DNA of 64,000 nucleotides, from contig OZ243928.1 of assembly GCA_965213865.1 (NCBI GenBank), forward strand, positions 2,106,828 through 2,170,827, written 5' to 3'. Position 1 is the stretch's first letter, and the number at the start of each line of letters is the position of its first letter. Below the pieces are notes generated by a model. The model was not told the DNA's origin, did no database searches, and was given only the letters and a program-made list of their open reading frames with translations. The stretch is from Arenicellales bacterium (GTDB lineage: Bacteria; Pseudomonadota; Gammaproteobacteria; Arenicellales; JAJDZL01). Shown here piece after piece: positions 17,338 through 46,214 of the stretch. The translations under genes were made by a program, and so were the position numbers.

Positions 17338-18558
17338 ATGTCTCTCATTGTCGAAAAATATGGCGGCACTTCTGTCGGTGATCTTGATCGAATCGACGCA
17401 GTGTCAAAACGTGTCGCGCAAGCGAAAGAGCAGGGCAACTGTGTTGTGGTTGTGCTCTCTGCCATGGCCGGAGAAACCACTCGTCTAATTGAATTGGGTC
17501 GGGCAGTCGATGCAGATGCGTCGCCGCGAGAGCTGGATATGCTGATTTCAACGGGTGAGCAGCAGACGATTGCACTGTTGAGCATCGCGCTGAATCGCCT
17601 CGGCTGCAAAGCTAAATCTTATGTAGGCAGTCAGGTTCCGATTGTGACCAGCGACCGGCATGGAAAAGCACGTGTCGAGGATATCGATACTGCCAGAATA
17701 CGAGGTGATTTGGAACAAGGATACATTGTTGTCGTAGCCGGATTCCAAGGGGTCAGCAAAGACAACGAAATCACCACGCTTGGCCGCGGCGGCTCCGATA
17801 CCACAGCAGTGGCCCTGGCGGCAGCGCTGAAGGCCGACGAATGCCGCATCTACACGGATGTTGACGGGGTGATGACTGCAGATCCGAGGATCGTTCCCGA
17901 TGCCCGGGTGCTGGAGCGCGTGACATCGGAGGAGATGCTGGAACTTTCAAGCCTTGGGGCCAAGGTTTTACAGATACGGGCAATGGAATTCGCACACAAA
18001 TATGGAGTCAAGCTGCGGGTTCTGTCCTCATTCAGCGACTCAACAGGCACCCTAGTCACAGCGGAGGAGAGGTCGATGGAACAGCCACTGATTACCGGCA
18101 TAGCATACAACACCAATGAAGCCAAATTGACCATTCGGGGTGTGCCGGACCGCCCCGGAATCGCATCGCAGGTATTCGGCTCGATCGCGGAAGCGCAAAT
18201 CAATGTTGACATGATCATACAGAATATCGGCAGCGACAACAATACGGACTTGACCTTTACGGTGGAGCGGGCGGATTTCAAGGTGAGTATTGACTTGCTT
18301 GAGAAAGTGCGGGTCAGTCTGGGTGCGGCAGACATTGTGGCGGCGGACGATATTGCCAAAATTTCTGTGGTCGGGGTGGGCATGCGCTCGCACTCGGGGA
18401 TTGCCACCAAAATGTTCCGAACGCTGGCCGGCGAAGGCATCAATATCCAAATGATCTCAACGTCAGAAATCAAGATTTCTGTGATTGTCGAGGAGAAATA
18501 CGTTGAATTGGGCGTGCGGGCGCTGCATCAAGCATTCGGCTTGGAGCGGACCGCTTAG
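17338..18558 (+). CDS. lysC: aspartate kinase
   Basis: Contains VEKYGGTSV, VVVLSAMAGETT and two C-terminal ACT domains. The last ~108 codons are duplicated at 25287-25610. Confidence 0.95.
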   Translation: MSLIVEKYGGTSVGDLDRIDAVSKRVAQAKEQGNCVVVVLSAMAGETTRLIELGRAVDADASPRELDMLISTGEQQTIALLSIALNRLGCKAKSYVGSQVPIVTSDRHGKARVEDIDTARIRGDLEQGYIVVVAGFQGVSKDNEITTLGRGGSDTTAVALAAALKADECRIYTDVDGVMTADPRIVPDARVLERVTSEEMLELSSLGAKVLQIRAMEFAHKYGVKLRVLSSFSDSTGTLVTAEERSMEQPLITGIAYNTNEAKLTIRGVPDRPGIASQVFGSIAEAQINVDMIIQNIGSDNNTDLTFTVERADFKVSIDLLEKVRVSLGAADIVAADDIAKISVVGVGMRSHSGIATKMFRTLAGEGINIQMISTSEIKISVIVEEKYVELGVRALHQAFGLERTA

Positions 18559-18831
18559 CTCTGGGCATGAAATCTGCATGTTTTGGAGTTGTTTCTGCGG
18601 CTTTTCCATTGGCCTGAGATCCTTGTTGTGACTGAATCTGCGGGGGGGGGTGAATTTTTTCCTTGTCCCGCCAGCGCCGCTCGCTGGAATACTCTCCTGA
18701 AAGGGGCTTTTCACCCCGATTCCGAAAGTCGCCTGATCCAGGCGGCTTTTTTCTTTAGTGGTTTTTTTTATCATAAATCACCCCCCTGCCGGTGCATTAT
18801 CACGGCCATTGCCAAAACTCGGCACACAAAA
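18235..18831 (+). repeat. left copy of a 597-bp direct repeat (lysC 3' end plus 273-bp 3'UTR)
   Basis: Near-identical to 25287-25883. The differences I found are three synonymous changes in the first 16 nt, one synonymous GGG/GGC change, G9 versus G11, T8 versus T6, and one T/C change. Confidence 0.95.
18728..18753 (+). terminator. rho-independent terminator at the end of the lysC 3'UTR
   Basis: The sequence gtcgcctg-atc-caggcggc forms an 8-bp stem and is followed by TTTTTTC. It is repeated in the second copy near 25780-25806. Confidence 0.7.
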
Positions 18832-19139
18832 GAGGCGATTCACGAAAACTGATATTCAATGCGACCTGTTCTGGCATGAATTTTTAGTAATTAAAATTTT
18901 AAATATTTGATAAATATTGTAAAAATATTTTTTCTTTCATGACGGCATCCCCGCTGATCGGGGTTGACTGCTATTATAAGCACAGCGATCTGGGCCGGCT
19001 GCACGGTGTGCTGCGGCGCAATCCGTCGCTGATTCTGATGCTCGGCTTCGAGCTTCAAGGGGGTGCGAGTCGACGATCCGACCGACTGCCGCTGCAAGGT
19101 GCTGGCAGCCAGCTACTTCACGCGCCTAAAGGCGCCCCT

Positions 19140-19445
19140 TTCCGTGAAGTTTGGAGGAATGAAGCTTTAGATTTTACGCCGGAGTTTGAAGAAAATACTG
19201 TGGTCATCAACGAGGTGAGGGGACTGTCGCCTGAGAATACTGAAAGGGAGAGAAGTGCCGAATCTCTCAACGTTGATATTGTTGCAGAGGATAGCGGACA
19301 GATAGCCGCAATCAAGAATCAACTAGAGCGAAGCGACCACCTAGGGGAAACCAATTACCTACCTGACCGTGCTGGAAGCAAAAATCGGTATTTGGATTGT
19401 GTCCCCCCGGCCAGAGCGCGTAAAGGCTGTTTCCTGGCTGAATGA
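19140..19445 (+). pseudogene. remnant of a PD-(D/E)XK/DUF4268-like nuclease gene
   Basis: FREVWRNEALDFTPEF ... VDIVAEDSGQIAAIKNQLERSDHLGE resembles the conserved N-terminal half (vW.nE..dFTpWL ... DIlA.d....viENQle.tDH.HLG). It is truncated and divergent and has no credible start. Confidence 0.4.
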
Positions 19446-19817
19446 ATCTAGAACAGTTTGCTTTTATTTACTAAAGGTGTAAACGATCAAGATCGGAGAC
19501 TCTGCACCAGCATCGTTAGTCACCTATCACTTGGACATACTTGACCAAAGGTTCTGATCGATCAAGTTCATTTCACACATCGCTTCATATATTTGGACAC
19601 TGAACGCCAATCAGGGAATTATAACGGCAGTGTCTCAGCTTGAAAATGTCCTTGCAGGCTTGGGTCGATGCGGTTGCGGCGCATCCGCGAGCACTCCGTC
19701 CGTTCCGGGCTGTCGCCCTCGTGGCCAGCGGCACCCCTGGCGCCGGTCGTGAAAAAAGCGTAATCGCCGGCGGCCCCGACACCCAAGCGGCGGAGCGCCC
19801 GTGTCCGGCCCTGGCCG

Positions 19818-20475
19818 CTACCGGCATCCCCACCGGTTCAGTAAATCGGTGTTGTCCTGAGTTGAGCTGAACAGGGGCAGGGTGGTCTTGCGCCCGCACC
19901 AGCAGTTGCGGACATGCTGCTGGGTCAGGGGGCTGATCGAGAAGCACCCGCTGTTCTGGCCTTCAGTACCGGGCGCCACATTCATGGTGTAGGTGCCGCC
20001 CGTCATGAAGCAGCGGCGGGCAAACACAATGTCTTCATGACCTGATGAAGTCACATTAACTTCCAAATAATAAGACGTCTTCACAACCAAGTTACTTATG
20101 ACGTCGTTTTCGCTTGGGAGCATTGTCTCGCTAAGGAGTGGATTGGGTACTTCCGCCACTTTCTTATCTGTGCCGGCTTCCTTAACAATGTAAACTACTT
20201 GTGCTGAGGTTGGTGGTGTCGTATCGCCAAGCCGCCCGACGTATTCGTTCCATGTGATAGCCGGTGCCGTGTAGCTCACGCTGGTTGTGGATAGGGCCGT
20301 GATGGGCATATTCCCAGCATTGACCTCTTTCTTATCAAGGCAAGCCGTGGGGCCTTCTCGCCCGCTGCTGGTTACGGTCGTCTGCGCTGTTACGGCCGCT
20401 GGCAGCGCCAGCAACGCAAGCAGAAAGAAGGCTGCTAATTTATGAGGGGGGGGGTGAAAGTAAAATGCGTTTCAT
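19818..20475 (-). pseudogene. phase-variable-leader secreted protein, family member A (currently out of frame at a C9 tract)
   Basis: GGAGGA lies 6 nt upstream of the ATG at 20475. The reading frame MKRILLS + C9 (20446-20454 on the + strand as G9) runs into TAA. With C8 it continues PHKLAAFFLLALLALPAAVTA/QTT into the 198-aa ORF of the track. Confidence 0.55.
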
Positions 20476-20608
20476 GAGGAGTCCTCCAGTTGTTTTGATT
20501 CTCTTATTCTATAGTGTTTTCCGCCGAAAGACAAGTGCTGAATTTCATGGCGAGACACTGCTATTATAACCAATCCTAATCAAAATAATTAAGTGTCCCC
20601 CCCCCAAA

Positions 20609-21490
20609 AAATCGGCACGTTCAATGCTGAGGGCGAAGATGGCCCGCTGAATTCGTCGGTTCGACTTGCCCGGCCGCGTTCTCAGCGCCGCATTTTCCGT
20701 AAAACCGGCGGCTGTGGCGCGACTGCGTAGCTGGGCGGCCGCCGACCGGCAAATCAGCGCGCTGCTTGAGGCGGTGCGCAATCTGCTGCGCCGCTGCCGG
20801 CAAGGAGTGCTGATGCCTTGGACCTGCTGGTGTCTTTTCGGACTGCCCAGCGTGACCGGCATGCGTCTCGGCGAGGTGCGCACTCTGGGAATCGAAGACG
20901 CTGATCTCACCGAAGCGATATTGACCGTGCGTCATGCCAGGACATGGCCGCAGCCGTCTGCCGCCAGTGCACTTGCGAGTGGCTCAGGCAGCATGCGAAT
21001 CAGCACGAGCAACGCTGGAGAGGACGTGTGAAGTCGAATTGGTTCTTTGTCTCAGGCAGAGGATCAAGACTGGACCGGCGCACTGTCGATACCGCCTTTC
21101 GCAAACTCGCTTGCCAGCCGAGGTTGTGTCAGGCGGCGGACAGAACAGGCCCGCGAGTCCATGATCTCAGGCACACCTTCTGTGTCTGGACTTTGGAGCG
21201 ATGGCACCGCGGCGGCGAGGATCCGGAACTGCTGCTGCCGCAGCTGACACCCGGCTTGATGGCGCAAGCGATGGAGCGGTTTTTCATGCAGCCGCTGCAG
21301 GCCAGTATGCATGCCGCTTGCTCGTATCGCGACATGTTCCGACAGTTGCTGGAGCTCGCTGCCAGGCGATTTGACCGGTCCCCGGAGCGTATCGCATTCG
21401 AGCAGGTCGATGCCGCGCTGGCCAGTGACTTTCTCGCTCATCTCAAGCGCAGCCGCAACATCAGTCCCCGAACCCGCAATCTGCGGCGTG
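20609..21490 (+). pseudogene. two fused, frameshifted tyrosine-recombinase remnants (RIT-like adjacent integrases)
   Basis: VTGMRLGEVRTLGIEDADLTEAILTVRH, then GKSRL-like, then FFVSGRGSRLDRRTV..RVHDLRHTFCVWTLERW occur in three different frames. This is fused to the N-terminus of a second recombinase (SYRDMFRQLLELAA..FLAHLKRSRNISPRTRNLR). There is a premature TGA at codon 9. Confidence 0.7.
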
Positions 21491-21492
21491 TA

Positions 21493-21845
21493 CTAGGTCA
21501 GCACGCGAAGTGCTGCCGCGGGGTCCCTGTCAAGCACCCGCAACAAGGCACGCGCCGCGGCCGTCGGGCAACGCTTTCCCTGCTCTCAGTTGCGGATGGT
21601 ATCGGGGGAAACATGGATGCGGCGTGCAAATTCGCTCTGCGTAAGCCCGAGCCCCTGCCGGACTCGGCGCGCATAACGCGACGCATCCTTCATGTCTTCG
21701 TCAGCGGCATCCGCCACCGCGAAGTCGACCCCCTAGGGAAGGTTCCAGGGTCCTTGGGATCAACCTCACGCGAGATTATGCCAGCATCGCAGCGTCGGAA
21801 GGTACCAGGGTCCTTGGGATCAACCCTGACGCGCGTTTTGGTCAT
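21493..21845 (-). pseudogene. BrnA-like antitoxin remnant
   Basis: Starts MTKTRVRVDPKDPGTF and ends with an HTH tail GLGLTQSEFARRIHVSPDTIRN*EQGKRCPTAAARALLRVL, where TGA replaces the conserved Trp codon. It also carries a frameshift and a 29-bp direct repeat (near 21737 and near 21797). Confidence 0.6.
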
Positions 21846-22101
21846 GTCTTTTAACCTCCCTAAGGTCAGCCTTGCGGGCAGAAATAATGCGGAACAAATG
21901 TCCTTCCATGGTATAGACAACAACATAGCCCCGTTCTTCGATCATGCCGAGTACCTGATAGCGATTCTCGCCATAGTCCCGGCGGCGATCCCGAAAACTG
22001 ATCTTGTGCCGGTCGGAAAAGACACGAGTCGCATAGTTGAAATCAAAACCGCGATTTTCAAAACAAGCCTCACTTTTCTTCTCGTTCCGTTCGAATTCCG
22101 T
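21820..22101 (-). pseudogene. BrnT (DUF497) toxin remnant lacking a start codon
   Basis: EFERNEKKSEACFENRGFDFNYATRVFSD..GENRYQVLGMIEERGYVVVYTMEGHLFRIISARKADLREVKRH matches the BrnT pattern (RIISARKA). The frame is closed by a stop immediately upstream, at the junction with the tandem array. Confidence 0.65.
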
Positions 22102-22236
22102 TCAAAATATTGCAAGCCTTTGGCCTATATTTGTCCATCTATCTGTCTGCTGGGAGAATCTGATCCGCTGCCTGCTCCCGGCAAGATCTGCACAGTCGGC
22201 TTGAAAACCCGCCTGATGATCTTATAGAATGGGGGC

Positions 22237-22503
22237 ATGGAAGAATCCACGAGTCACGAACAGGCAAAAGACATTGCCGAGTTGAAGAAACAGCACGCTG
22301 TGATGGAGGAACGAATGAAGACACTGCAGGCCGACCTTCAGGGAACGCTTGAGCGTTTCCGGGCCGACATGGCCGACTTGAAAACCGACATGGCCAGGCG
22401 GGATACCGAAGCCGGAAAGCGGGAGAACCGACTGCTCATAACCATGATCGTGGTAGTCGGCGTGGCCACTGCGACACTGGGTGTGCTAATCACTGCGCAG
22501 TAG
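22237..22503 (+). CDS. small tail-anchored coiled-coil protein, array copy 1 (88 aa, no extra heptad)
   Basis: Has an acidic helical N-terminus (MEESTSHEQAKDIAELKKQHAVMEERMKTLQADLQGTLERFRADMADLKTDMARRDTEAGKRENR) and a C-terminal hydrophobic helix (LLITMIVVVGVATATLGVLITAQ). Confidence 0.6.
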   Translation: MEESTSHEQAKDIAELKKQHAVMEERMKTLQADLQGTLERFRADMADLKTDMARRDTEAGKRENRLLITMIVVVGVATATLGVLITAQ

Positions 22504-22807
22504 CCGCAAACTACTGCTGCCGCCGGCAGGCGGCGCCAACCGTCCTGCTCCTGGTCATCCGCAAATGATTAAGTCAGAAAAGACGCCTGGAGCAGGCGGC
22601 TTTCGGGGGTGGAGTGAAAAAACCGCTTTCAGCGGCCTGGGCCTCCGAAAAGCGGCTTTCAGGGGGGTATTCCGGCGGCGCTGCGGGGCAAAAAAAATTT
22701 CACCCCCTCGCAGGTCCAGTCATACCAAGGATTTCAGGCAATGGAAAAGCCTCCTGCTGGGAGAATCTGATCCGCTGCCTGCTCCCGGCAAGATCTGCAC
22801 AGTCGGC

Positions 22808-22837
22808 TTGAAAACCCGCCTGATGATCTTATAGAAT
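22808..22837 (+). promoter_or_regulatory. sigma70-like promoter in each array unit (also at 22201-22230, 23457-23486 and 24085-24114)
   Basis: TTGAAA - 18 nt - TAGAAT, with the -10 element ending 6 nt before the ATG of the small ORF. This implies a leaderless or near-leaderless mRNA. Confidence 0.5.
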
Positions 22838-22843
22838 GGGGGC

Positions 22844-23152
22844 ATGGAAGAATCCACGAGTCACGAACAGGCAAAAGACATTGCCGAGTTGAAGAAACAG
22901 CACGCTGTGATGGAGGAACGAATGAAGACACTGCAGGCCGACCTTCAGGGAACGCTTGAGCGTTTCCGGGCCGACATGGCCAGGCGGGATGCCGACATGG
23001 CCAGGCGGGATACCGACATGGCCGACTTGAAAACCGACATGGCCAGGCGGGATACCGAAGCCGGAAAGCGGGAGAACCGACTGCTCATAACCATGATCGT
23101 GGTAGTCGGCGTGGCCACTGCGACACTGGGTGTGCTAATCACTGCGCAGTAG
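22844..23152 (+). CDS. small tail-anchored coiled-coil protein, array copy 2 (102 aa, two extra ADMARRD heptads)
   Basis: Identical to copy 1 except for an in-frame 42-bp expansion. Confidence 0.6.
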   Translation: MEESTSHEQAKDIAELKKQHAVMEERMKTLQADLQGTLERFRADMARRDADMARRDTDMADLKTDMARRDTEAGKRENRLLITMIVVVGVATATLGVLITAQ

Positions 23153-23492
23153 CCGCAAACTACTGCTGCCGCCGGCAGGCGGCGCCAACCGTCCTGCTCC
23201 TGGTCATCCGCAAATGATTAAGTCAGAAAAGACGCCTGGAGCAGGCGGCTTTCGGGGGTGGAGTGAAAAAACCGCTTTCAGCGGCCTGGGCCTCCGAAAA
23301 GCGGCTTTCAGGGGGGTATTCCGGCGGCGCTGCGGGGCAAAAAAAATTTCACCCCCTCGCAGGTCCAGTCATACCAAGGATTTCAGGCAATGGAAAAGCC
23401 TCCTGCTGGGAGAATCTGATCCGCTGCCTGCTCCCGGCAAGATCTGCACAGTCGGCTTGAAAACCCGCCTGATGATCTTATAGAATGGGGGC

Positions 23493-23780
23493 ATGGAAGA
23501 ATCCACGAGTCACGAACAGGCAAAAGACATTGCCGAGTTGAAGAAACAGCACGCTGTGATGGAGGAACGAATGAAGACACTGCAGGCCGACCTTCAGGGA
23601 ACGCTTGAGCGTTTCCGGGCCGACATGGCCAGGCGGGATGCCGACATGGCCGACTTGAAAACCGACATGGCCAGGCGGGATACCGAAGCCGGAAAGCGGG
23701 AGAACCGACTGCTCATAACCATGATCGTGGTAGTCGGCGTGGCCACTGCGACACTGGGTGTGCTAATCACTGCGCAGTAG
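23493..23780 (+). CDS. small tail-anchored coiled-coil protein, array copy 3 (95 aa, one extra heptad)
   Basis: Identical to copy 1 except for an in-frame 21-bp expansion. Confidence 0.6.
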   Translation: MEESTSHEQAKDIAELKKQHAVMEERMKTLQADLQGTLERFRADMARRDADMADLKTDMARRDTEAGKRENRLLITMIVVVGVATATLGVLITAQ

Positions 23781-24120
23781 CCGCAAACTACTGCTGCCGC
23801 CGGCAGGCGGCGCCAACCGTCCTGCTCCTGGTCATCCGCAAATGATTAAGTCAGAAAAGACGCCTGGAGCAGGCGGCTTTCGGGGGTGGAGTGAAAAAAC
23901 CGCTTTCAGCGGCCTGGGCCTCCGAAAAGCGGCTTTCAGGGGGGTATTCCGGCGGCGCTGCGGGGCAAAAAAAATTTCACCCCCTCGCAGGTCCAGTCAT
24001 ACCAAGGATTTCAGGCAATGGAAAAGCCTCCTGCTGGGAGAATCTGATCCGCTGCCTGCTCCCGGCAAGATCTGCACAGTCGGCTTGAAAACCCGCCTGA
24101 TGATCTTATAGAATGGGGGC

Positions 24121-24408
24121 ATGGAAGAATCCACGAGTCACGAACAGGCAAAAGACATTGCCGAGTTGAAGAAACAGCACGCTGTGATGGAGGAACGAAT
24201 GAAGACACTGCAGGCCGACCTTCAGGGAACGCTTGAGCGTTTCCGGGCCGACATGGCCAGGCGGGATGCCGACATGGCCGACTTGAAAACCGACATGGCC
24301 AGGCGGGATACCGAAGCCGGAAAGCGGGAGAACCGACTGCTCATAACCATGATCGTGGTAGTCAGCGTGGCCACTGCGACACTGGGTGTGCTAATCACTG
24401 CGCAGTAG
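24121..24408 (+). CDS. small tail-anchored coiled-coil protein, array copy 4 (95 aa, one extra heptad, G->S in the TM segment)
   Basis: Same as copy 3 except for ggc->agc at 24363. A 3-nt microsatellite gain follows the stop. Confidence 0.6.
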   Translation: MEESTSHEQAKDIAELKKQHAVMEERMKTLQADLQGTLERFRADMARRDADMADLKTDMARRDTEAGKRENRLLITMIVVVSVATATLGVLITAQ

Positions 24409-24716
24409 CCGCAAACTACTACTACTGCCGCCGGCAGGCGGCGCCAACCGTCCTGCTCCTGGTCATCCGCTCACCAGTTCTATTTGAGGATTAACCCCAT
24501 CCATAAATAGAGAACACAAGAGTACCCGGGGCTTGCGTGGCGTGATTTTCGAGAGGCCTGCAGAATCACCCATTGGGTGATTTCAGGTCGAAGGCTGAAA
24601 TCCGCATCACATATGCCTTTCCGCCTAATGCCGAGAAATCTGTTCAAGGAGTCGGGAATTCTCCTGCTATTGCGCAGAGATGAAAATGCTGTACAATTTC
24701 TGTATCTCGTTCACCC

Positions 24717-25107
24717 TTGGAGAACCGGAATGAAGCTCTGAACGAAATTTACTCCCCCCCCCTCGCTAGACTGACGGCCTTTCTGGGTGCTGTTCTCGCC
24801 CTGCCTGCCGGGCCGGTGATGGCCGAGCAGTGCGGTATATCTCATATCACGATGAGCAAAACCTACCCGAATGAGGACTTTATAGTAGAAGGTGTTCCTA
24901 GTGGAGCAATAGTCTCTTTCTCACTGGAAGAGTCAGGCTGCGACAATCTCGGTAGTCCTGGTACTCCTCGGGAATACGCAATTCCCTTTTGCGACTGCCT
25001 TAATAGTTCCGTACGACAACGACTTCGTGGACGACATGGAGAATTCCATTCATGTCATCTTTAGACATGGTACGAAATACCAGCACTTAAGGATCCCCAT
25101 CCATGAT
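24717..25107 (+). pseudogene. phase-variable-leader secreted protein, family member B (degraded paralog of member D)
   Basis: The C9 tract (24764-24772) is followed by LARLTAFLGAVLALPAGPVMA/EQCGISHITMSK..CDNLGSPGTPREYAIPFC. The mid-section present in D is deleted, and the conserved C-terminus VPYDNDFVDDMENSIHVIF..LRIPIHDDE* lies in another frame. The ATG at 24730 runs into TGA after 3 codons. Confidence 0.5.
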
Positions 25108-25286
25108 GATGAGTGACCGAACATAAGGGGATTCGAGAGACGCGAAACGAAGATATGCATCATTCCCCATTGCCTCTTGCCTCATCTGACCGCAGGGATG
25201 ATCAGATGAGGATTGCAGGCCGCCCTTGAACCGAGTGTCTAACGGCGCAGTTCCTGGTCGCTGGCATGCGATGACCTGTTCCAGAG

Positions 25287-25883
25287 GACAACAATACAGA
25301 TCTGACCTTTACGGTGGAGCGGGCGGATTTCAAGGTGAGTATTGACTTGCTTGAGAAAGTGCGGGTCAGTCTGGGTGCGGCAGACATTGTGGCGGCGGAC
25401 GATATTGCCAAAATTTCTGTGGTCGGCGTGGGCATGCGCTCGCACTCGGGGATTGCCACCAAAATGTTCCGAACGCTGGCCGGCGAAGGCATCAATATCC
25501 AAATGATCTCAACGTCAGAAATCAAGATTTCTGTGATTGTCGAGGAGAAATACGTTGAATTGGGCGTGCGGGCGCTGCATCAAGCATTCGGCTTGGAGCG
25601 GACCGCTTAGCTCTGGGCATGAAATCTGCATGTTTTGGAGTTGTTTCTGCGGCTTTTCCATTGGCCTGAGATCCTTGTTGTGACTGAATCTGCGGGGGGG
25701 GGGGTGAATTTTTTCCTTGTCCCGCCAGCGCCGCTCGCTGGAATACTCTCCTGAAAGGGGCTTTTCACCCCGATTCCGAAAGTCGCCTGATCCAGGCGGC
25801 TTTTTTCTTTAGTGGTTTTTTATCATAAATCACCCCCCTGCCGGTGCATTATCACGGCCATTGCCAAAACCCGGCACACAAAA
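25287..25883 (+). repeat. right copy of the 597-bp direct repeat; it contains a displaced lysC 3' fragment (25287-25610)
   Basis: Encodes DNNTDLTFTVERADFKV...GLERTA*, identical in amino-acid sequence to the lysC C-terminus but with no 5' part. It is followed by the same 3'UTR and terminator. Confidence 0.95.
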
Positions 25884-26070
25884 AAATGCTCTAACGAAAC
25901 TGCCTCACTTTTTGGCTTTAATGACATTTGATTTGTTTTTTCGTGGTAAAATTAAAAAAAAAGCATCTTTTAGTTAAAGAAAAAATTTAGCACCCCGTCG
26001 CTTTGTACTGATTAGTTTCAGTCTGTCTGCCGGGCTAAGCTAGTGAATAAATTGAAAGGGGATTGTAAGC

Positions 26071-26253
26071 GTGTTGATATTGACCCGAAAGATTGGCGAA
26101 TCTATAAGGATTGAAGATAATATCTCGGTTTCAGTGCTGGATATAAAGGGGAATCAAGTGCGAATCGGTGTAGAGGCGCCCAAGCAGATAGCTGTTCATC
26201 GAGAAGAGATTTATCAGAGTTTGAAAAGCAAAAAAACCAAGGATAATTTTTAA
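26071..26253 (+). CDS. csrA: carbon storage regulator CsrA/RsmA
   Basis: Reads (V)[50 protein letters not shown] start preceded by AAGGGGA. Confidence 0.9.
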
Positions 26254-26892: not shown

Positions 26893-26981
26893 GGAGAGGT
26901 GGCCGAGTGGTTGAAGGCGTTCCCCTGCTAAGGGAATATGGGCAACCCCCATCGAGGGTTCGAATCCCTCCCTCTCCGCCA
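26893..26981 (+). tRNA. tRNA-Ser (anticodon GCT)
   Basis: GGAGAGGTGGCCGAGTGGTTGAAGGC ... CTGCTAA anticodon loop ... long variable arm ... GGTTCGAATCCCTCCCTCTCCGCCA. Confidence 0.9.
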
Positions 26982-27035: not shown

Positions 27036-27112
27036 GCGCCTGTAGCTCAGCTGGATAGAGTACTAGACTACGAATCTAGGGGTCGGGGGTTCGAATCCCT
27101 CCAGGCGCGCCA
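27036..27112 (+). tRNA. tRNA-Arg (anticodon ACG)
   Basis: GCGCCTGTAGCTCAGCTGGATAGAGT ... ACTACGAAT anticodon loop ... GGTTCGAATCCCTCCAGGCGCGCCA. Confidence 0.9.
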
Positions 27113-34316: not shown

Positions 34317-34520
34317 AAATCGGCACGTTCAATGCTGAGGGCGAAGACGGGGCGCCGAATGCGTCGATTCGACCTGCCCGGCCGCACCGGATTCCGTTCC
34401 GGCCGCGCCTTCAGCGTCGCATTTTCCACCAAACCTGCAGATGCGACGCGGTCGCGCTGCTTCTCGCCTCCGGCCAGCAGCGCCACCCAGCGCTGCAGGG
34501 CGAATTTTTGTTCGGCCTAT
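34317..34520 (+). repeat. copy R2 of a recombinase-5'-end repeat family (R1 at 20609, R3 at 43798 on the - strand)
   Basis: All three copies start at the same nucleotide string ccaaatcggcacgttcaatgc(t/c)gagggcga..., while the sequence outside that point is unrelated. Confidence 0.75.
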
Positions 34521-36015: not shown

Positions 36016-36606
36016 ATGAAACAATCCCAGAATCCCCCCCCCCTCGCTAGACTGGCAGCCCTTCTATTGCTTCTAGCAATGGCAATCCCGGCGGGGGCTC
36101 AGACGACGATCCGGGAGGGGAATGATATACTAGTAAATATGGAAATTCAGAATAATAAAATGGGAACTGAGGCGCGAGTTGCCGCCGCACTCGCGGCAAG
36201 AAACAGCATCCCTGTAGGTTGTGGCGTGGCAGGGAGTGACGCTTGCTTCACTATTGAGAGAGTCTGGCCATCTGCCGCATACATTCGGATAACAGCCGTC
36301 GCGGACGATTGTAGAAACGGTACTGCAGCGAGACAGGTGACAGTCGACAGCACAACCTATCAACATCAGGATGATGATTGGTATCCGAGGTATACATGCG
36401 CAAATCCACAAGTTATGACCAAGTATAACCAAGACTATAGACATGGATATAGAGATACTTGCAGGGCGCATGAAATATCTAGTGGTCAAGAGTGCTTAGC
36501 CAAGTGTCTTGATACACAGATTTGGCGTGAAGCAGGTTGGATCCCACTAGGCGGAACCGAAATAAGCAGGGTGGGAGCTAATGGTGCCTGCGAAACTTGG
36601 AAGTAA
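36016..36606 (+). CDS. phase-variable-leader secreted Cys-rich protein, family member C (in frame, C10 tract)
   Basis: MKQSQN + C10 (36034-36043) reads through as PPPLARLAALLLLLAMAIPAGA/QTT. The mature part is ~170 aa with 8 Cys. A TATAAT-like element lies ~35 nt upstream, and a hairpin follows the stop. Confidence 0.6.
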   Translation: MKQSQNPPPLARLAALLLLLAMAIPAGAQTTIREGNDILVNMEIQNNKMGTEARVAAALAARNSIPVGCGVAGSDACFTIERVWPSAAYIRITAVADDCRNGTAARQVTVDSTTYQHQDDDWYPRYTCANPQVMTKYNQDYRHGYRDTCRAHEISSGQECLAKCLDTQIWREAGWIPLGGTEISRVGANGACETWK

Positions 36607-43285: not shown

Positions 43286-43540
43286 CCTTGATCGGCAGGC
43301 TGCCGCTGCACTTTGACGGGAAAGCCTTGCAATGAAATGGATGCCTCTCGGGTGACTGACGGCATCATCATGTGCCGGACTGAAATGGTTCAGTCCGACA
43401 GGAGCATCCGGATGAGGAAGATGCAAAAAATCCGCCAGGCCGGTGCGGATCGGGCCCAGAGCGTGATTCAGATCCATGCGGCTGGCCAAGCAGGTTGCAA
43501 GGTGATGAGCAGTCGGTTTTCAAGAGCCAAGGCGCTGGAG
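43286..43540 (-). repeat. IR-L, left arm of a ~250-bp inverted repeat
   Basis: Its reverse complement aligns with 45945-46214 with scattered mismatches and a 13-bp indel. It contains the perfect palindrome ccggactgaa..ttcagtccgg. It is contiguous with repeat R3 (43541-43798). Confidence 0.8.
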
Positions 43541-43798
43541 CCGATGAGTCCGCGCGCGCAGGCGATCAATGCGATGAGCTGGCGCTGTGCGGAGTCTGGT
43601 GCGGCGCCCGAGGGAGGCTGCAATGCGGGCGTACGCCTGCTGTGCGGTGAGAAGCGCGCGCCATCGCGCCGCGCCGGTCGGCTTTGTGGAAAATGCGGCG
43701 CTGAAAGCGCGGCCGGACCGCAATCCGGTGCGGCCGGGCAGGTCGAGTCAACGCATTCGGCGGCCCGCCCTCGCCCTCGGCATTGAACGTGCCGATTT
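43541..43798 (-). repeat. copy R3 of the recombinase-5'-end repeat family
   Basis: Its reverse complement begins ccaaatcggcacgttcaatgccgagggcga, as in R1 and R2. Confidence 0.75.
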
Positions 43799-45057: not shown

Positions 45058-45184
45058 AATCGACCGATTGATGCGAAAATGTCGCTCTAACGCGGACTTA
45101 GGGGGAATGCCGATAAACGAGCATGCCTGCCGGGATGTGGTATAATGCCAGGCATCACTCGCATTCCAGGAGAGGATAAAGAAA

Positions 45185-45711
45185 ATGAAACCGGCATCAG
45201 CATTCACCCCCCCCCGCTAAAATTAGCAGCGTTCCTGCTTCTGGCAGGCTTGGCGATGCCGGCCGGCCCGGCAGTGGCCGAGCAGTGCAATGCCTCCCAT
45301 ATTGAGATAACCAAAGTCTTCCCGACTACGGCATTTGTCAGCGAAAACCAGTCGCCTGGCGTGGTCCTCCGGTTCAAGCTAACGCGCTGCGACAATCTCG
45401 GCAGCAGCGGCACTCCCCGGGAATACCAGATTCCCTTCTGCGCCGAGTTCTTCGACACCACCCCGTGCGATGCCAACGCTACAGGCTGCCTGAGCAACAA
45501 TGTTGCCGGCGCTCGCGGTGTTGCAGCCGCCGACTGGCCGGTTGCCGGCGCGTTCAAGCGGTGCTCCTAAATTATTGAGACTCAGAACTTCCGAAATGCA
45601 CTCGTAGCCCCGTACAACAACGGCTTCCGGGACGACGGGGAGAATTCCCTGTACGTCATCATGCACAACCCAACCCGTCATCTGCGCATTCCCATTCGGG
45701 ACGATGACTGA
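45185..45711 (+). pseudogene. phase-variable-leader secreted protein, family member D (out of frame at C9; also an in-frame TAA at 45568)
   Basis: AGGAG precedes the ATG at 45185. MKPASAFT + C9 (45207-45215) runs into TAA. With C10 it reads PPPLKLAAFLLLAGLAMPAGPAVA/EQCNASHIEITK..CDNLGSSGTPREYQIPFC. The conserved C-terminal block APYNNGFRDDGENSLYVIMH..LRIPIRDDD* continues in the same frame after the TAA. Confidence 0.5.
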
Positions 45712-45944: not shown

Positions 45945-46214
45945 GTACCTCCAGCGCCCGGCTCTTGAAAACCGGCGGCTCATCACCTTCCTGCCTGCTT
46001 GGCCGGCCGCATGGATCTGAGTCACGCTCTGGCCCGATCCGCACCGGCCTGGCGGATTTTTTGCATCTTCCTCATCCGGATGCTCCTGATCAAGGTTTCT
46101 GCCGGACTGAACCATTTCAGTCCGGCACATGATAATGCCGTCAGTCACCCGAGGGGCAGCCATTTCATTGCAGGGCTTTCCTGCCAAAGTACAGCGGCAG
46201 CCTGCCGATCAAGG
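45945..46214 (+). repeat. IR-R, right arm of the ~250-bp inverted repeat
   Basis: See IR-L. The two arms bracket 43541-45944. Confidence 0.8.

What the first reader, a model, noticed from the sequence alone, without database searches (positions are those of the whole stretch)
18235..25883. 6.5-kb decayed island inserted at the 3' end of lysC, bracketed by 597-bp direct repeats that regenerate the gene end
Segments 18235-18831 and 25287-25883 are direct repeats. Each covers the last ~108 codons of aspartate kinase plus 273 bp of 3'UTR and its terminator. The conserved neighbour csrA follows only the second copy.

At the left edge of the right copy, the first 16 nt differ at three positions that are all synonymous (ACG GAC TTG versus ACA GAT CTG). 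After that the copies are near-identical, apart from G9/G11, T8/T6 and two point changes. This is the pattern expected when an integrating element carries its own version of the target gene's 3' end, so that lysC stays intact.

The 6455 bp between the repeats contain only debris plus the tandem array and two phase-variable-leader genes. The debris comprises a nuclease remnant, frameshifted tyrosine recombinases and BrnT/BrnA remnants. No intact integrase remains, so the island is probably immobilised. I have not seen lysC described as an integration target, so this may be of interest, but I cannot verify that without a literature or database check.
Basis: partly seen in the sequence, partly recalled or inferred. 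Interest (0 to 1): 0.6.

Follow-up and report, generated by a model that had tools for sequence, protein, structure and literature searches.

The report
Decayed island flanked by lysC-end repeats
About 7 kb of mostly dead mobile DNA sits between the aspartate kinase gene (lysC) and csrA, bracketed by two 597-base copies of the lysC end so the gene stays whole. It looks like an ordinary single-crossover insertion scar, not a new lysC-targeting mobile element.

Summary
Segments 18235-18831 and 25287-25883 are 597-nt direct repeats. They differ by 5 substitutions and 2 homopolymer lengths, and their edges are sharp.

The nearest relative found (LysC 94% identical, DNA about 85%) has an empty site, with lysC 193 bp from csrA. 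It shares only the lysC end plus 36 nt with the repeat. The other 237 nt of the supposed 3'UTR are specific to this lineage. They are an inverted copy of a module that ends three of the four units of the island's tandem array.

The recombinase fragments are the RitB C-terminal part and RitC N-terminal part of a recombinase-in-trio element, not an island integrase. Also present are a DUF4268 nuclease stub, near-intact but inactivated BrnT/BrnA, a 4-unit array and two genes with a poly-C leader.

Best reading: a circular DNA carrying a captured lysC-end segment inserted by one reciprocal crossover, probably by homologous recombination. Gene conversion then kept the repeats alike except at their edges. 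Three synonymous changes at one edge show that this copy came from another lysC allele.

No other genome, phage or provirus examined shows lysC used as an attachment site. Interest is low to moderate.

The parts
17338..18558 (+). lysC (aspartate kinase), intact, 406 aa. Its last 107 codons plus stop lie in the left repeat.
   Evidence: ORF. Pfam AA_kinase 3e-51 plus ACT domains. 100% identical to P0001 and 94% to P0121.
18235..18831 (+). Left direct repeat (597 nt): lysC codons 300-406 plus stop (18235-18558), a 36-nt conserved trailer (18559-18594), and module X (18595-18831).
   Evidence: Homology to L087 ends at 18594.
18595..18831 (+). Module X, absent from the nearest relative. It holds a G9 tract (18642-18650) and a terminator-like hairpin (18724-18750). 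Bases 18599-18750 are an inverted copy, about 80% identical, of the tail of the first three array units.
18832..25286 (.). Unique 6455-nt interior of the insertion (Y), a mosaic of decayed mobile DNA.
   Evidence: No homology to L081, L082, L084 or L087. Pfam six-frame scans.
19134..19376 (+). N-terminal stub (about 75 aa) of a DUF4268 / putative endonuclease gene.
   Evidence: tblastn to plasmid genes annotated as DUF4268 or putative endonuclease, E 1e-12 to 1e-4. No Pfam hit.
19818..20476 (-). Secreted-protein gene with a poly-C (C9) tract in its leader (20447-20455 on the + strand). It is out of frame in this state.
   Evidence: No Pfam or plasmid match.
20609..20760 (+). Copy of a roughly 150-nt repeat also present at 34317-34470 and, inverted, at 43650-43798. 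It abuts the truncated ritB.
20705..21258 (+). ritB remnant (residues 94-280 of 314), with one frameshift near 20941-20968 and the C-terminal catalytic-Tyr region missing.
   Evidence: Pfam Phage_integrase. tblastn to the adjacent gene pair on pHG1.
21247..21486 (+). ritC remnant (residues 3-86 of 332).
21493..21730 (-). brnA-like HTH antitoxin remnant with an internal stop (IRN*EQG).
   Evidence: HTH_31 5e-08 spanning the stop in the six-frame scan. Also.
21820..22098 (-). brnT toxin gene. The full domain is in frame, but there is no ATG/GTG/TTG start (ACG follows an upstream TGA).
   Evidence: BrnT_toxin 4.7e-18, profile positions 2-77 of 77. Sequence.
22147..24568 (+). Tandem array of 4 units (607/649/628 nt). 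Each unit has a promoter-like site and a small coiled-coil plus transmembrane ORF of 88-102 aa; the first three also end in module M (22578-22751, 23227-23400, 23855-24028).
   Evidence: The ORF family is restricted to this lineage.
24717..25064 (+). Second poly-C-leader secreted-protein gene (C9 at 24754-24762), a paralogue of 45145-45570.
25287..25883 (+). Right direct repeat (597 nt): an orphan lysC' fragment (25287-25610) with no in-frame upstream coding, the 36-nt trailer (25611-25646), and X' (25647-25883).
25884..25908 (+). 25 nt (Z) between the right repeat and the point where homology to the relative's lysC-csrA spacer resumes.
26071..26253 (+). csrA, the conserved right-hand neighbour, followed by tRNA-Ser(GCT) at 26893-26981 and tRNA-Arg(ACG) at 27036-27112.

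Best explanation
A circular DNA molecule of about 7.05 kb recombined once, reciprocally, with the chromosome (a Campbell-type insertion). The circle consisted of the 6455-nt interior plus one 597-nt segment. That segment had been captured from an earlier host and comprised lysC codons 300-406, the stop, a 36-nt trailer and the 237-nt module X.

One crossover inside the shared segment duplicates it. The left copy completes lysC and supplies a terminator. The right copy is a promoterless orphan in front of csrA.

The shared segment is long, runs without regard to gene or signal boundaries, and has no cognate integrase. For these reasons the crossover was most likely RecA-dependent homologous recombination. 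Later gene conversion between the copies erased their differences except within about 16 nt of each edge.

The cargo is a junkyard typical of this genome: RIT remnant, BrnTA, nuclease stub, poly-C-leader genes and a small-ORF array. The island can now leave only by homologous deletion between the repeats.

Shown: the insertion, the repeats, the intact lysC, the edge-biased synonymous differences and the composition of the cargo. Inferred: the circular intermediate, the capture step, RecA dependence and gene conversion.
For: - Empty sites in four relatives, including L087 (LysC 94% identical, collinear at about 85% DNA identity), place the extra DNA at 18595-25908.
- The repeats are 597 nt with sharp, unrelated flanks.
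- The repeat joins 360 nt shared with L087 to 237 nt that L087 lacks. It is therefore an arbitrary chromosomal stretch, not an attachment site.
- Four of five substitutions lie within 16 nt of an edge (p about 4e-5). All four coding changes are synonymous (p = 0.0035).
- L087 shares the left-copy bases at all three edge sites, so the right-copy edge derives from another functional allele.
- The only recombinase traces are central RitB/RitC fragments. The six-frame Pfam scans (which skipped the repeated array units 2-3, 22851-24399) found no other recombinase.
- The same spacer holds an unrelated restriction-modification pair in L081, so the spacer tolerates insertions.
Against: - No circular form, donor genome or same-species strain could be retrieved, so the intermediate and the capture step are hypothetical.
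- If the donor copy was as diverged as its edge suggests (3 differences in 16 nt), RecA-mediated integration would have been inefficient. Nearly complete later homogenisation must then be assumed.
- The module M copies inside the array show that the locus has been rearranged, so the history may involve more steps.
- An integrase that has since been deleted cannot be excluded.
Confidence: 0.5

Rival explanations
1. A tyrosine-integrase element targets lysC near codon 300-305 and carries its own lysC 3' end, so that site-specific integration regenerates the gene. The integrase was later lost.
For: The direct repeats start inside lysC and keep it intact. The left 16 nt of the right copy differ at three synonymous sites, as expected for an element-borne arm. 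Tyrosine recombinase fragments exist in the island.
Against: The fragments are RitB/RitC of a recombinase-in-trio element, lie centrally, and are not known island integrases (PMC3414803). The repeat is 597 nt at about 99% identity and includes 237 nt of non-native, array-related DNA. No other lysC-end duplication was found in 80 GTDB loci or 5 relatives. No phage or provirus carries a lysC fragment as an attachment site. No literature record was found.
Confidence: 0.17
2. The duplication arose in place. The 597-nt segment was copied on the same chromosome, either as a long fill-in duplication at widely staggered breaks or by two template switches, in the same event that inserted the interior. 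Alternatively a tandem duplication was later split by an insertion.
For: The copies are almost identical, and both junctions are sharp with at most 2-4 nt of microhomology. Both copies carry the same lineage-specific module X.
Against: Copies identical at birth do not explain three clustered substitutions, all synonymous, at one edge (p about 2e-4 for the clustering and about 0.014 for synonymy). An insertion landing exactly at a tandem junction would be a coincidence. No bacterial mechanism is known to me that makes 597-nt target duplications.
Confidence: 0.13
3. The structure is an assembly or consensus artefact. It could be a chimeric consensus of strains with and without the island, or a misjoin across a repeat.
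For: The relatives come from metagenome assemblies (record names), so the source probably does too. The two homopolymer differences could be read errors.
Against: Five substitutions distinguish the copies, and each copy has unique flanks on both sides. Collapsing or duplicating a repeat would not create an in-frame, intact lysC plus an orphan copy with a distinct allele. The source contig is 3.29 Mb. No reads were available, so this could not be tested directly.
Confidence: 0.05

Closest known systems
Campbell-type single-crossover integration through a cloned or captured homology segment (suicide-vector insertion; lysogeny of specialised transducing lambda gal/bio through host homology). From my own knowledge.
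   Same: One reciprocal crossover duplicates the shared segment as direct repeats around the inserted DNA. The target gene stays intact if the segment reaches its 3' end. Loss occurs by homologous recombination between the repeats.
   Different: No replicon, phage or vector functions are recognisable, and the circle and capture step are inferred. The repeats appear to have been homogenised afterwards.
Prophages and islands that insert inside a gene and carry a replacement 3' end (phage 21 and e14 in icd; tRNA/tmRNA-targeting islands). From my own knowledge.
   Same: The flanking direct repeats include the 3' end of the target gene, so the gene is regenerated. One repeat edge carries synonymous differences.
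   Different: Those use a cognate integrase next to the attachment site and short cores, with the element-borne copy visibly diverged throughout. Here the repeat is 597 nt at about 99% identity, has no integrase, and recurs in no other genome.
Recombinase-in-trio (RIT) elements (Van Houdt et al. 2012, PMC3414803).
   Same: The island's recombinase fragments match adjacent ritB-ritC genes at 38-45% identity across the gene boundary.
   Different: Only about 0.8 kb of an element of about 3.5 kb remains. ritA is absent and both remaining genes are truncated. RITs are not known to create long direct repeats or to target lysC.
Variable 'hotspot' intervals between conserved genes that hold different cargo in different strains (for example the minimal mobile elements of Neisseria). 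From my own knowledge.
   Same: The lysC-csrA spacer is empty in L087, L082, L084 and L085. It holds a restriction-modification pair in L081 and this island in the window.
   Different: Exchange at such hotspots by double crossover leaves no duplication of a flank. Here one flank is duplicated.

Membership tests
Integrase-mediated island/prophage regenerating a gene 3' end | Insertion relative to an empty site in relatives | tested here: met
   L087, L082, L084 and L085 have lysC about 70-250 bp from csrA.
Integrase-mediated island/prophage regenerating a gene 3' end | Flanking direct repeats that contain the target gene's 3' end and leave the gene intact | tested here: met
Integrase-mediated island/prophage regenerating a gene 3' end | Cognate integrase gene (or its remnant) adjacent to one attachment site | tested here: not met
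   Six-frame Pfam scans covering both island ends (the repeated array units 2-3, 22851-24399, were left out) find only central RitB/RitC fragments at 20705-21486. Nothing is found within 1.8 kb of either end.
Integrase-mediated island/prophage regenerating a gene 3' end | Short identity core, with the element-borne copy otherwise diverged | tested here: not met
   597 nt with only 5 substitutions, including 273 nt of non-coding DNA.
Integrase-mediated island/prophage regenerating a gene 3' end | The same target is used repeatedly in other genomes or elements | tested here: not met
   No second lysC C-terminal copy in 80 GTDB loci or 5 relatives. INPHARED hits are host DNA. The 12 IMG/VR proviruses lie at tRNA-Ser(GCT).
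Campbell-type homologous (RecA) insertion | Direct repeats equal one contiguous chromosomal segment, irrespective of gene or signal boundaries | tested here: met
   The repeat runs from lysC codon 300 to a featureless point 81 nt past the terminator-like hairpin, and spans native plus non-native DNA.
Campbell-type homologous (RecA) insertion | Circular intermediate carrying one copy of the segment; dependence on RecA | not testable with these tools
   No reads and no same-species genomes. The source genome could not be retrieved.
RIT (recombinase in trio) element | Three adjacent, overlapping genes ritA-ritB-ritC | tested here: not met
   Only RitB residues 94-280 and RitC residues 3-86 are present, and no RitA match. 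It is a remnant, not a complete element.
RIT (recombinase in trio) element | Sequence homology to RitB and RitC across their gene junction | tested here: met
   tblastn at 38-45% identity (top 15 of 446 matching plasmid records) covering about 90% of a 279-aa reconstruction in 80 of those records. The pHG1 trio was confirmed by its annotation.
BrnT/BrnA type II toxin-antitoxin | BrnT domain plus an adjacent HTH antitoxin, both as open genes | tested here: not met
   The domains are present (BrnT 4.7e-18; HTH_31 5e-08). However, brnT lacks a start codon and brnA has an internal stop.
tRNA-targeting island at the lysC-proximal tRNA-Ser/Arg genes | Insertion at a tRNA gene, with a duplicated tRNA 3' segment | tested here: not met
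   The tRNAs lie 1 kb downstream of the right repeat, and there is no tRNA fragment in or beside the island.

The most novel reading that the evidence does not exclude
The island may be an integrase-free 'hitch-hiker'. Its only mobility module would be a captured 597-nt piece of host chromosome (the lysC end plus module X). It would enter and leave genomes of this lineage by RecA-mediated recombination, always regenerating lysC, and the repeats would be kept matched by gene conversion. A stronger variant is that an undescribed recombinase family targets the lysC 3' end and its gene has been lost here.
Probability: 0.2. Interest if true: 0.45.

Novelty: new member of a known kind. Interest (0 to 1): 0.25.

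Why it matters
This is a clean example of how a gene end can be duplicated around inserted DNA without any site-specific machinery. It shows how edge-restricted, synonymous differences can reveal both a foreign origin and later gene conversion.

It also shows that an apparent native 3'UTR and terminator can itself be imported DNA. For annotation, the orphan 98-codon lysC fragment should not be called a gene, and the integrase hits should be labelled as RIT remnants.

It does not establish lysC as a new attachment site.

Tried and rejected
- **Source genome not retrievable.** Exact-protein look-ups for CsrA, LysC, SRAP and P0001 failed. No reads or same-species strains could be examined.
- **GTDB scan.** The scan with LysC gave only relatives at 66% identity or less. 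None has a second lysC C-terminal copy.
- **Intergenic comparison with L081 and L082.** DNA identity of about 70% was too low to place insertion points.
- **Homology beyond the repeat edges.** This was tested and rejected.
- **Module X versus the native spacer.** The similarity is borderline (55 of 1000 shuffles score as well) and was not relied on.
- **INPHARED phages carrying lysC fragments.** The five hits were not phage-borne lysC fragments: the one opened (H20) is bacterial DNA labelled as phage, and the rest look like host or unverified sequence.
- **IMG/VR proviruses with lysC fragments.** All 12 are proviruses at tRNA-Ser(GCT) next to lysC, and lysC is only host flank.
- **Rfam.** No family matches module X/M. 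Folding of X is not significant (z = -1.2), and of M is marginal (z = -2.7).
- **JGI metagenome scan.** No match for the M core.
- **Contexts of the array's small ORF in relatives.** None lies near lysC and none is followed by M.
- **Literature.** Searches for lysC or aspartate kinase as an attachment site returned nothing relevant.
- **Terminal inverted repeats of the interior.** None found. A 13-nt direct repeat near its ends is only marginal (p about 0.015).


Full report
**Observation**

The two segments 18235-18831 and 25287-25883 are direct repeats of 597 nt each, 7052 nt apart. A base-by-base comparison gives five substitutions: 18246 G/A, 18249 C/T, 18250 T/C, 18375 G/C and 18819 T/C. 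There are also two homopolymer differences, G9/G11 and T8/T6.

The 200 nt outside either end show no similarity beyond chance. The left copy is the end of an intact 406-aa aspartate kinase with AA_kinase plus ACT domains. It is preceded by alaS. The right copy is followed by csrA, tRNA-Ser(GCT), tRNA-Arg(ACG), an SRAP gene and RNase R.

The right copy has a stop codon in frame 12 nt upstream of its start, so it is an orphan fragment. All four coding differences are synonymous (p = 0.0035, given that 24% of possible changes there are synonymous). Three of the five substitutions fall in the first 16 nt (p about 2e-4). A fourth lies 13 nt from the right end.

**Relatives**

The source genome is a 3.29-Mb contig (P0001), but it could not be retrieved. 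Five related loci were fetched.

- **L087.** Its LysC is 94% identical and it is collinear with the window at about 85% DNA identity from 7.4 to 39 kb. It has lysC followed by csrA after 193 bp.
- **L082, L084 and L085.** These have LysC 74-76% identical and are also empty.
- **L081.** With LysC 82% identical, it has a different 7.4-kb insertion in the same spacer: a ResIII helicase and an N6_N4 methyltransferase. It has no lysC duplication.
- **GTDB loci.** Among 80 more distant loci, the lysC-csrA gap is 55-333 bp wherever csrA is present, and none has a second lysC C-terminus.

So the region is an insertion, and the spacer has been hit at least twice in this clade.

**What the repeat is made of**

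Homology between the window and L087 runs through lysC to 36 nt past the stop codon (18594, equivalent to 25646). It resumes at 25909. Relative to the empty site, the extra DNA is therefore 18595-25908 (7314 nt). It consists of:

- X (18595-18831)
- the unique interior Y (18832-25286)
- a lysC' fragment plus trailer (25287-25646)
- X' (25647-25883)
- 25 further nt (Z)

X is not ancestral lysC trailer. Bases 18599-18750 are an inverted copy, about 80% identical, of a module (M) that ends three of the four units of the island's tandem array. M was not found elsewhere in the window, in any related locus, in Rfam or in JGI metagenomes.

The 597-nt repeat is thus a composite: 360 nt shared with L087 plus 237 nt related to the island. 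That is what one expects of an arbitrary stretch of chromosome, not of an attachment site.

**Cargo**

Six-frame Pfam scans covering all of the interior except the repeated array units 2-3 (22851-24399), together with targeted searches, give the following.

- **Nuclease stub.** An N-terminal fragment of about 75 aa from a DUF4268 / putative endonuclease gene.
- **First poly-C-leader gene.** A secreted-protein gene on the minus strand with a C9 tract in its leader.
- **150-nt repeat.** A copy of a repeat also present at 34.3 and 43.7 kb.
- **Recombinase fragments.** A 279-aa reconstruction matches, at 38-45% identity, the end of one gene and the start of the next on many plasmids. On pHG1 these are the second and third genes of a trio. 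The window retains RitB residues 94-280 and RitC residues 3-86. Such trios are the RIT elements of Van Houdt et al. (PMC3414803).
- **BrnT.** The full domain is in frame, but no start codon is present.
- **BrnA-like HTH gene.** It has an internal stop.
- **Tandem array.** Four units. Each has a promoter-like site and a small coiled-coil plus transmembrane ORF; the first three also carry module M.
- **Second poly-C-leader gene**.

The small ORF belongs to a lineage-restricted multicopy family. In relatives it sits singly in variable cassettes, not near lysC and without M. No recombinase lies near either end of the island.

**Mechanism**

A single reciprocal crossover between the chromosome and a circle carrying one copy of the 597-nt segment accounts for the structure in one step. 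It explains the two repeats, the sharp junctions and the intact lysC.

Alternatives that start from a duplication on the same chromosome have two problems. They need an insertion exactly at a tandem junction, or staggered breaks 597 nt apart. They also do not explain the clustered synonymous changes.

The edge changes matter. At the three sites, L087 shares the left-copy bases (ACG GAC TTA) while the right copy has ACA GAT CTG.

The interior is nevertheless about 99.7% identical, and that includes non-coding X. The simplest reconciliation is gene conversion between the copies. Conversion needs homology on both sides, so it spares the outermost bases. That matches differences at 12-16 nt from one edge and 13 nt from the other. 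Conversion also reconciles near-identical repeats with heavily decayed cargo.

Whether the original crossover was made by RecA or by a lost integrase cannot be settled here. The length and composite nature of the repeat, the absence of an edge integrase and the lack of recurrence favour RecA.

**Is lysC a known or recurrent target?**

- Literature searches found nothing.
- INPHARED phage hits to the LysC C-terminus are host or unverified sequence; the one opened is bacterial DNA carrying a complete lysC.
- Twelve IMG/VR proviruses contain lysC sequence. In every case tRNA-Ser(GCT) follows lysC within about 100-500 nt and lysC is host flank, so these use the tRNA site.
- In the window the tRNAs are 1 kb downstream of the right repeat, and no tRNA fragment is duplicated.

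**Verdict**

The evidence does not support a lysC-specific integrating element. The feature is best filed as a Campbell-type insertion scar with homogenised long repeats in a spacer that tolerates insertions. It is a new instance of a known kind of structure, of low to moderate interest.

The main unresolved items are the nature of module X/M and the identity of the donor. Both need the whole genome, its reads or conspecific strains.

Noticed in passing
window 18599-18750 and 25653-25804 versus 22578-22751, 23227-23400 and 23855-24028: A module of about 150-190 nt (M) downstream of lysC is an inverted copy, about 80% identical, of the tail of three tandem-array units. It has no Rfam family, no copy elsewhere in the window or in relatives, and no JGI metagenome match.
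   Followed up: partly
window 20609-20760, 34317-34470 and 43650-43798 (reverse strand): A repeat of about 150 nt (84-90% identical) occurs three times. The two copies outside the island lie beside transposase debris; the island copy abuts the truncated ritB. Its nature is unknown.
   Followed up: partly
window 19818-20476 (-), 24717-25064, 36016-36606 and 45145-45570: A family of secreted-protein genes carries a poly-C tract in the signal-peptide region. Runs of 8 or more G/C give 17 matches in the window against 1.3 expected, which suggests slipped-strand switching.
   Followed up: partly
window 43286-43528 and 45960-46214: Long inverted repeats (89-100% complementary, about 240 nt) bracket 2.4 kb containing transposase fragments and a poly-C-leader gene. 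This may be a composite mobile unit.
   Followed up: no
window 34.1-38.1 kb and 42.1-46.3 kb: Two further blocks are absent from the collinear relatives (between mbnB/bufA and DUF1841, and after metG). They contain the same kinds of debris as the lysC island but have no flanking long direct repeats.
   Followed up: partly
L081 11222-18586: A relative with LysC 82% identical carries a ResIII helicase and an N6_N4 DNA methyltransferase (a restriction-modification pair resembling type III) in the same lysC-csrA spacer. There are no mobility genes and no lysC duplication.
   Followed up: partly
window 22971-23058, 23620-23686 and 24248-24314: 21-nt (7-aa, DMARRDA-like) repeats inside the array's small ORFs vary in copy number between units. 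This explains the unit lengths of 607, 649 and 628 nt.
   Followed up: no
window 21737-21765 and 21797-21825: Two 29-nt direct repeats, 60 nt apart, sit between the brnT and brnA remnants. They may be a small insertion that split the operon.
   Followed up: no
window 18859-18871 and 25266-25281: A 13-nt direct repeat, ATGC(GAT)GACCTGTTC, lies close to both ends of the unique interior (p about 0.015 by shuffling). It could be a relic of an older insertion event, or chance.
   Followed up: partly
L091-L102 (IMG/VR): Twelve proviral contigs begin or end with lysC followed within about 100-500 nt by tRNA-Ser(GCT). The tRNA next to lysC is therefore a recurrent provirus site in other proteobacteria.
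   Followed up: yes
L087 11592-13385: In the closest relative, about 1.8 kb lies between csrA and a truncated SRAP gene (125 aa against 270 aa in the window). This is another local rearrangement next to the tRNA genes.
   Followed up: no
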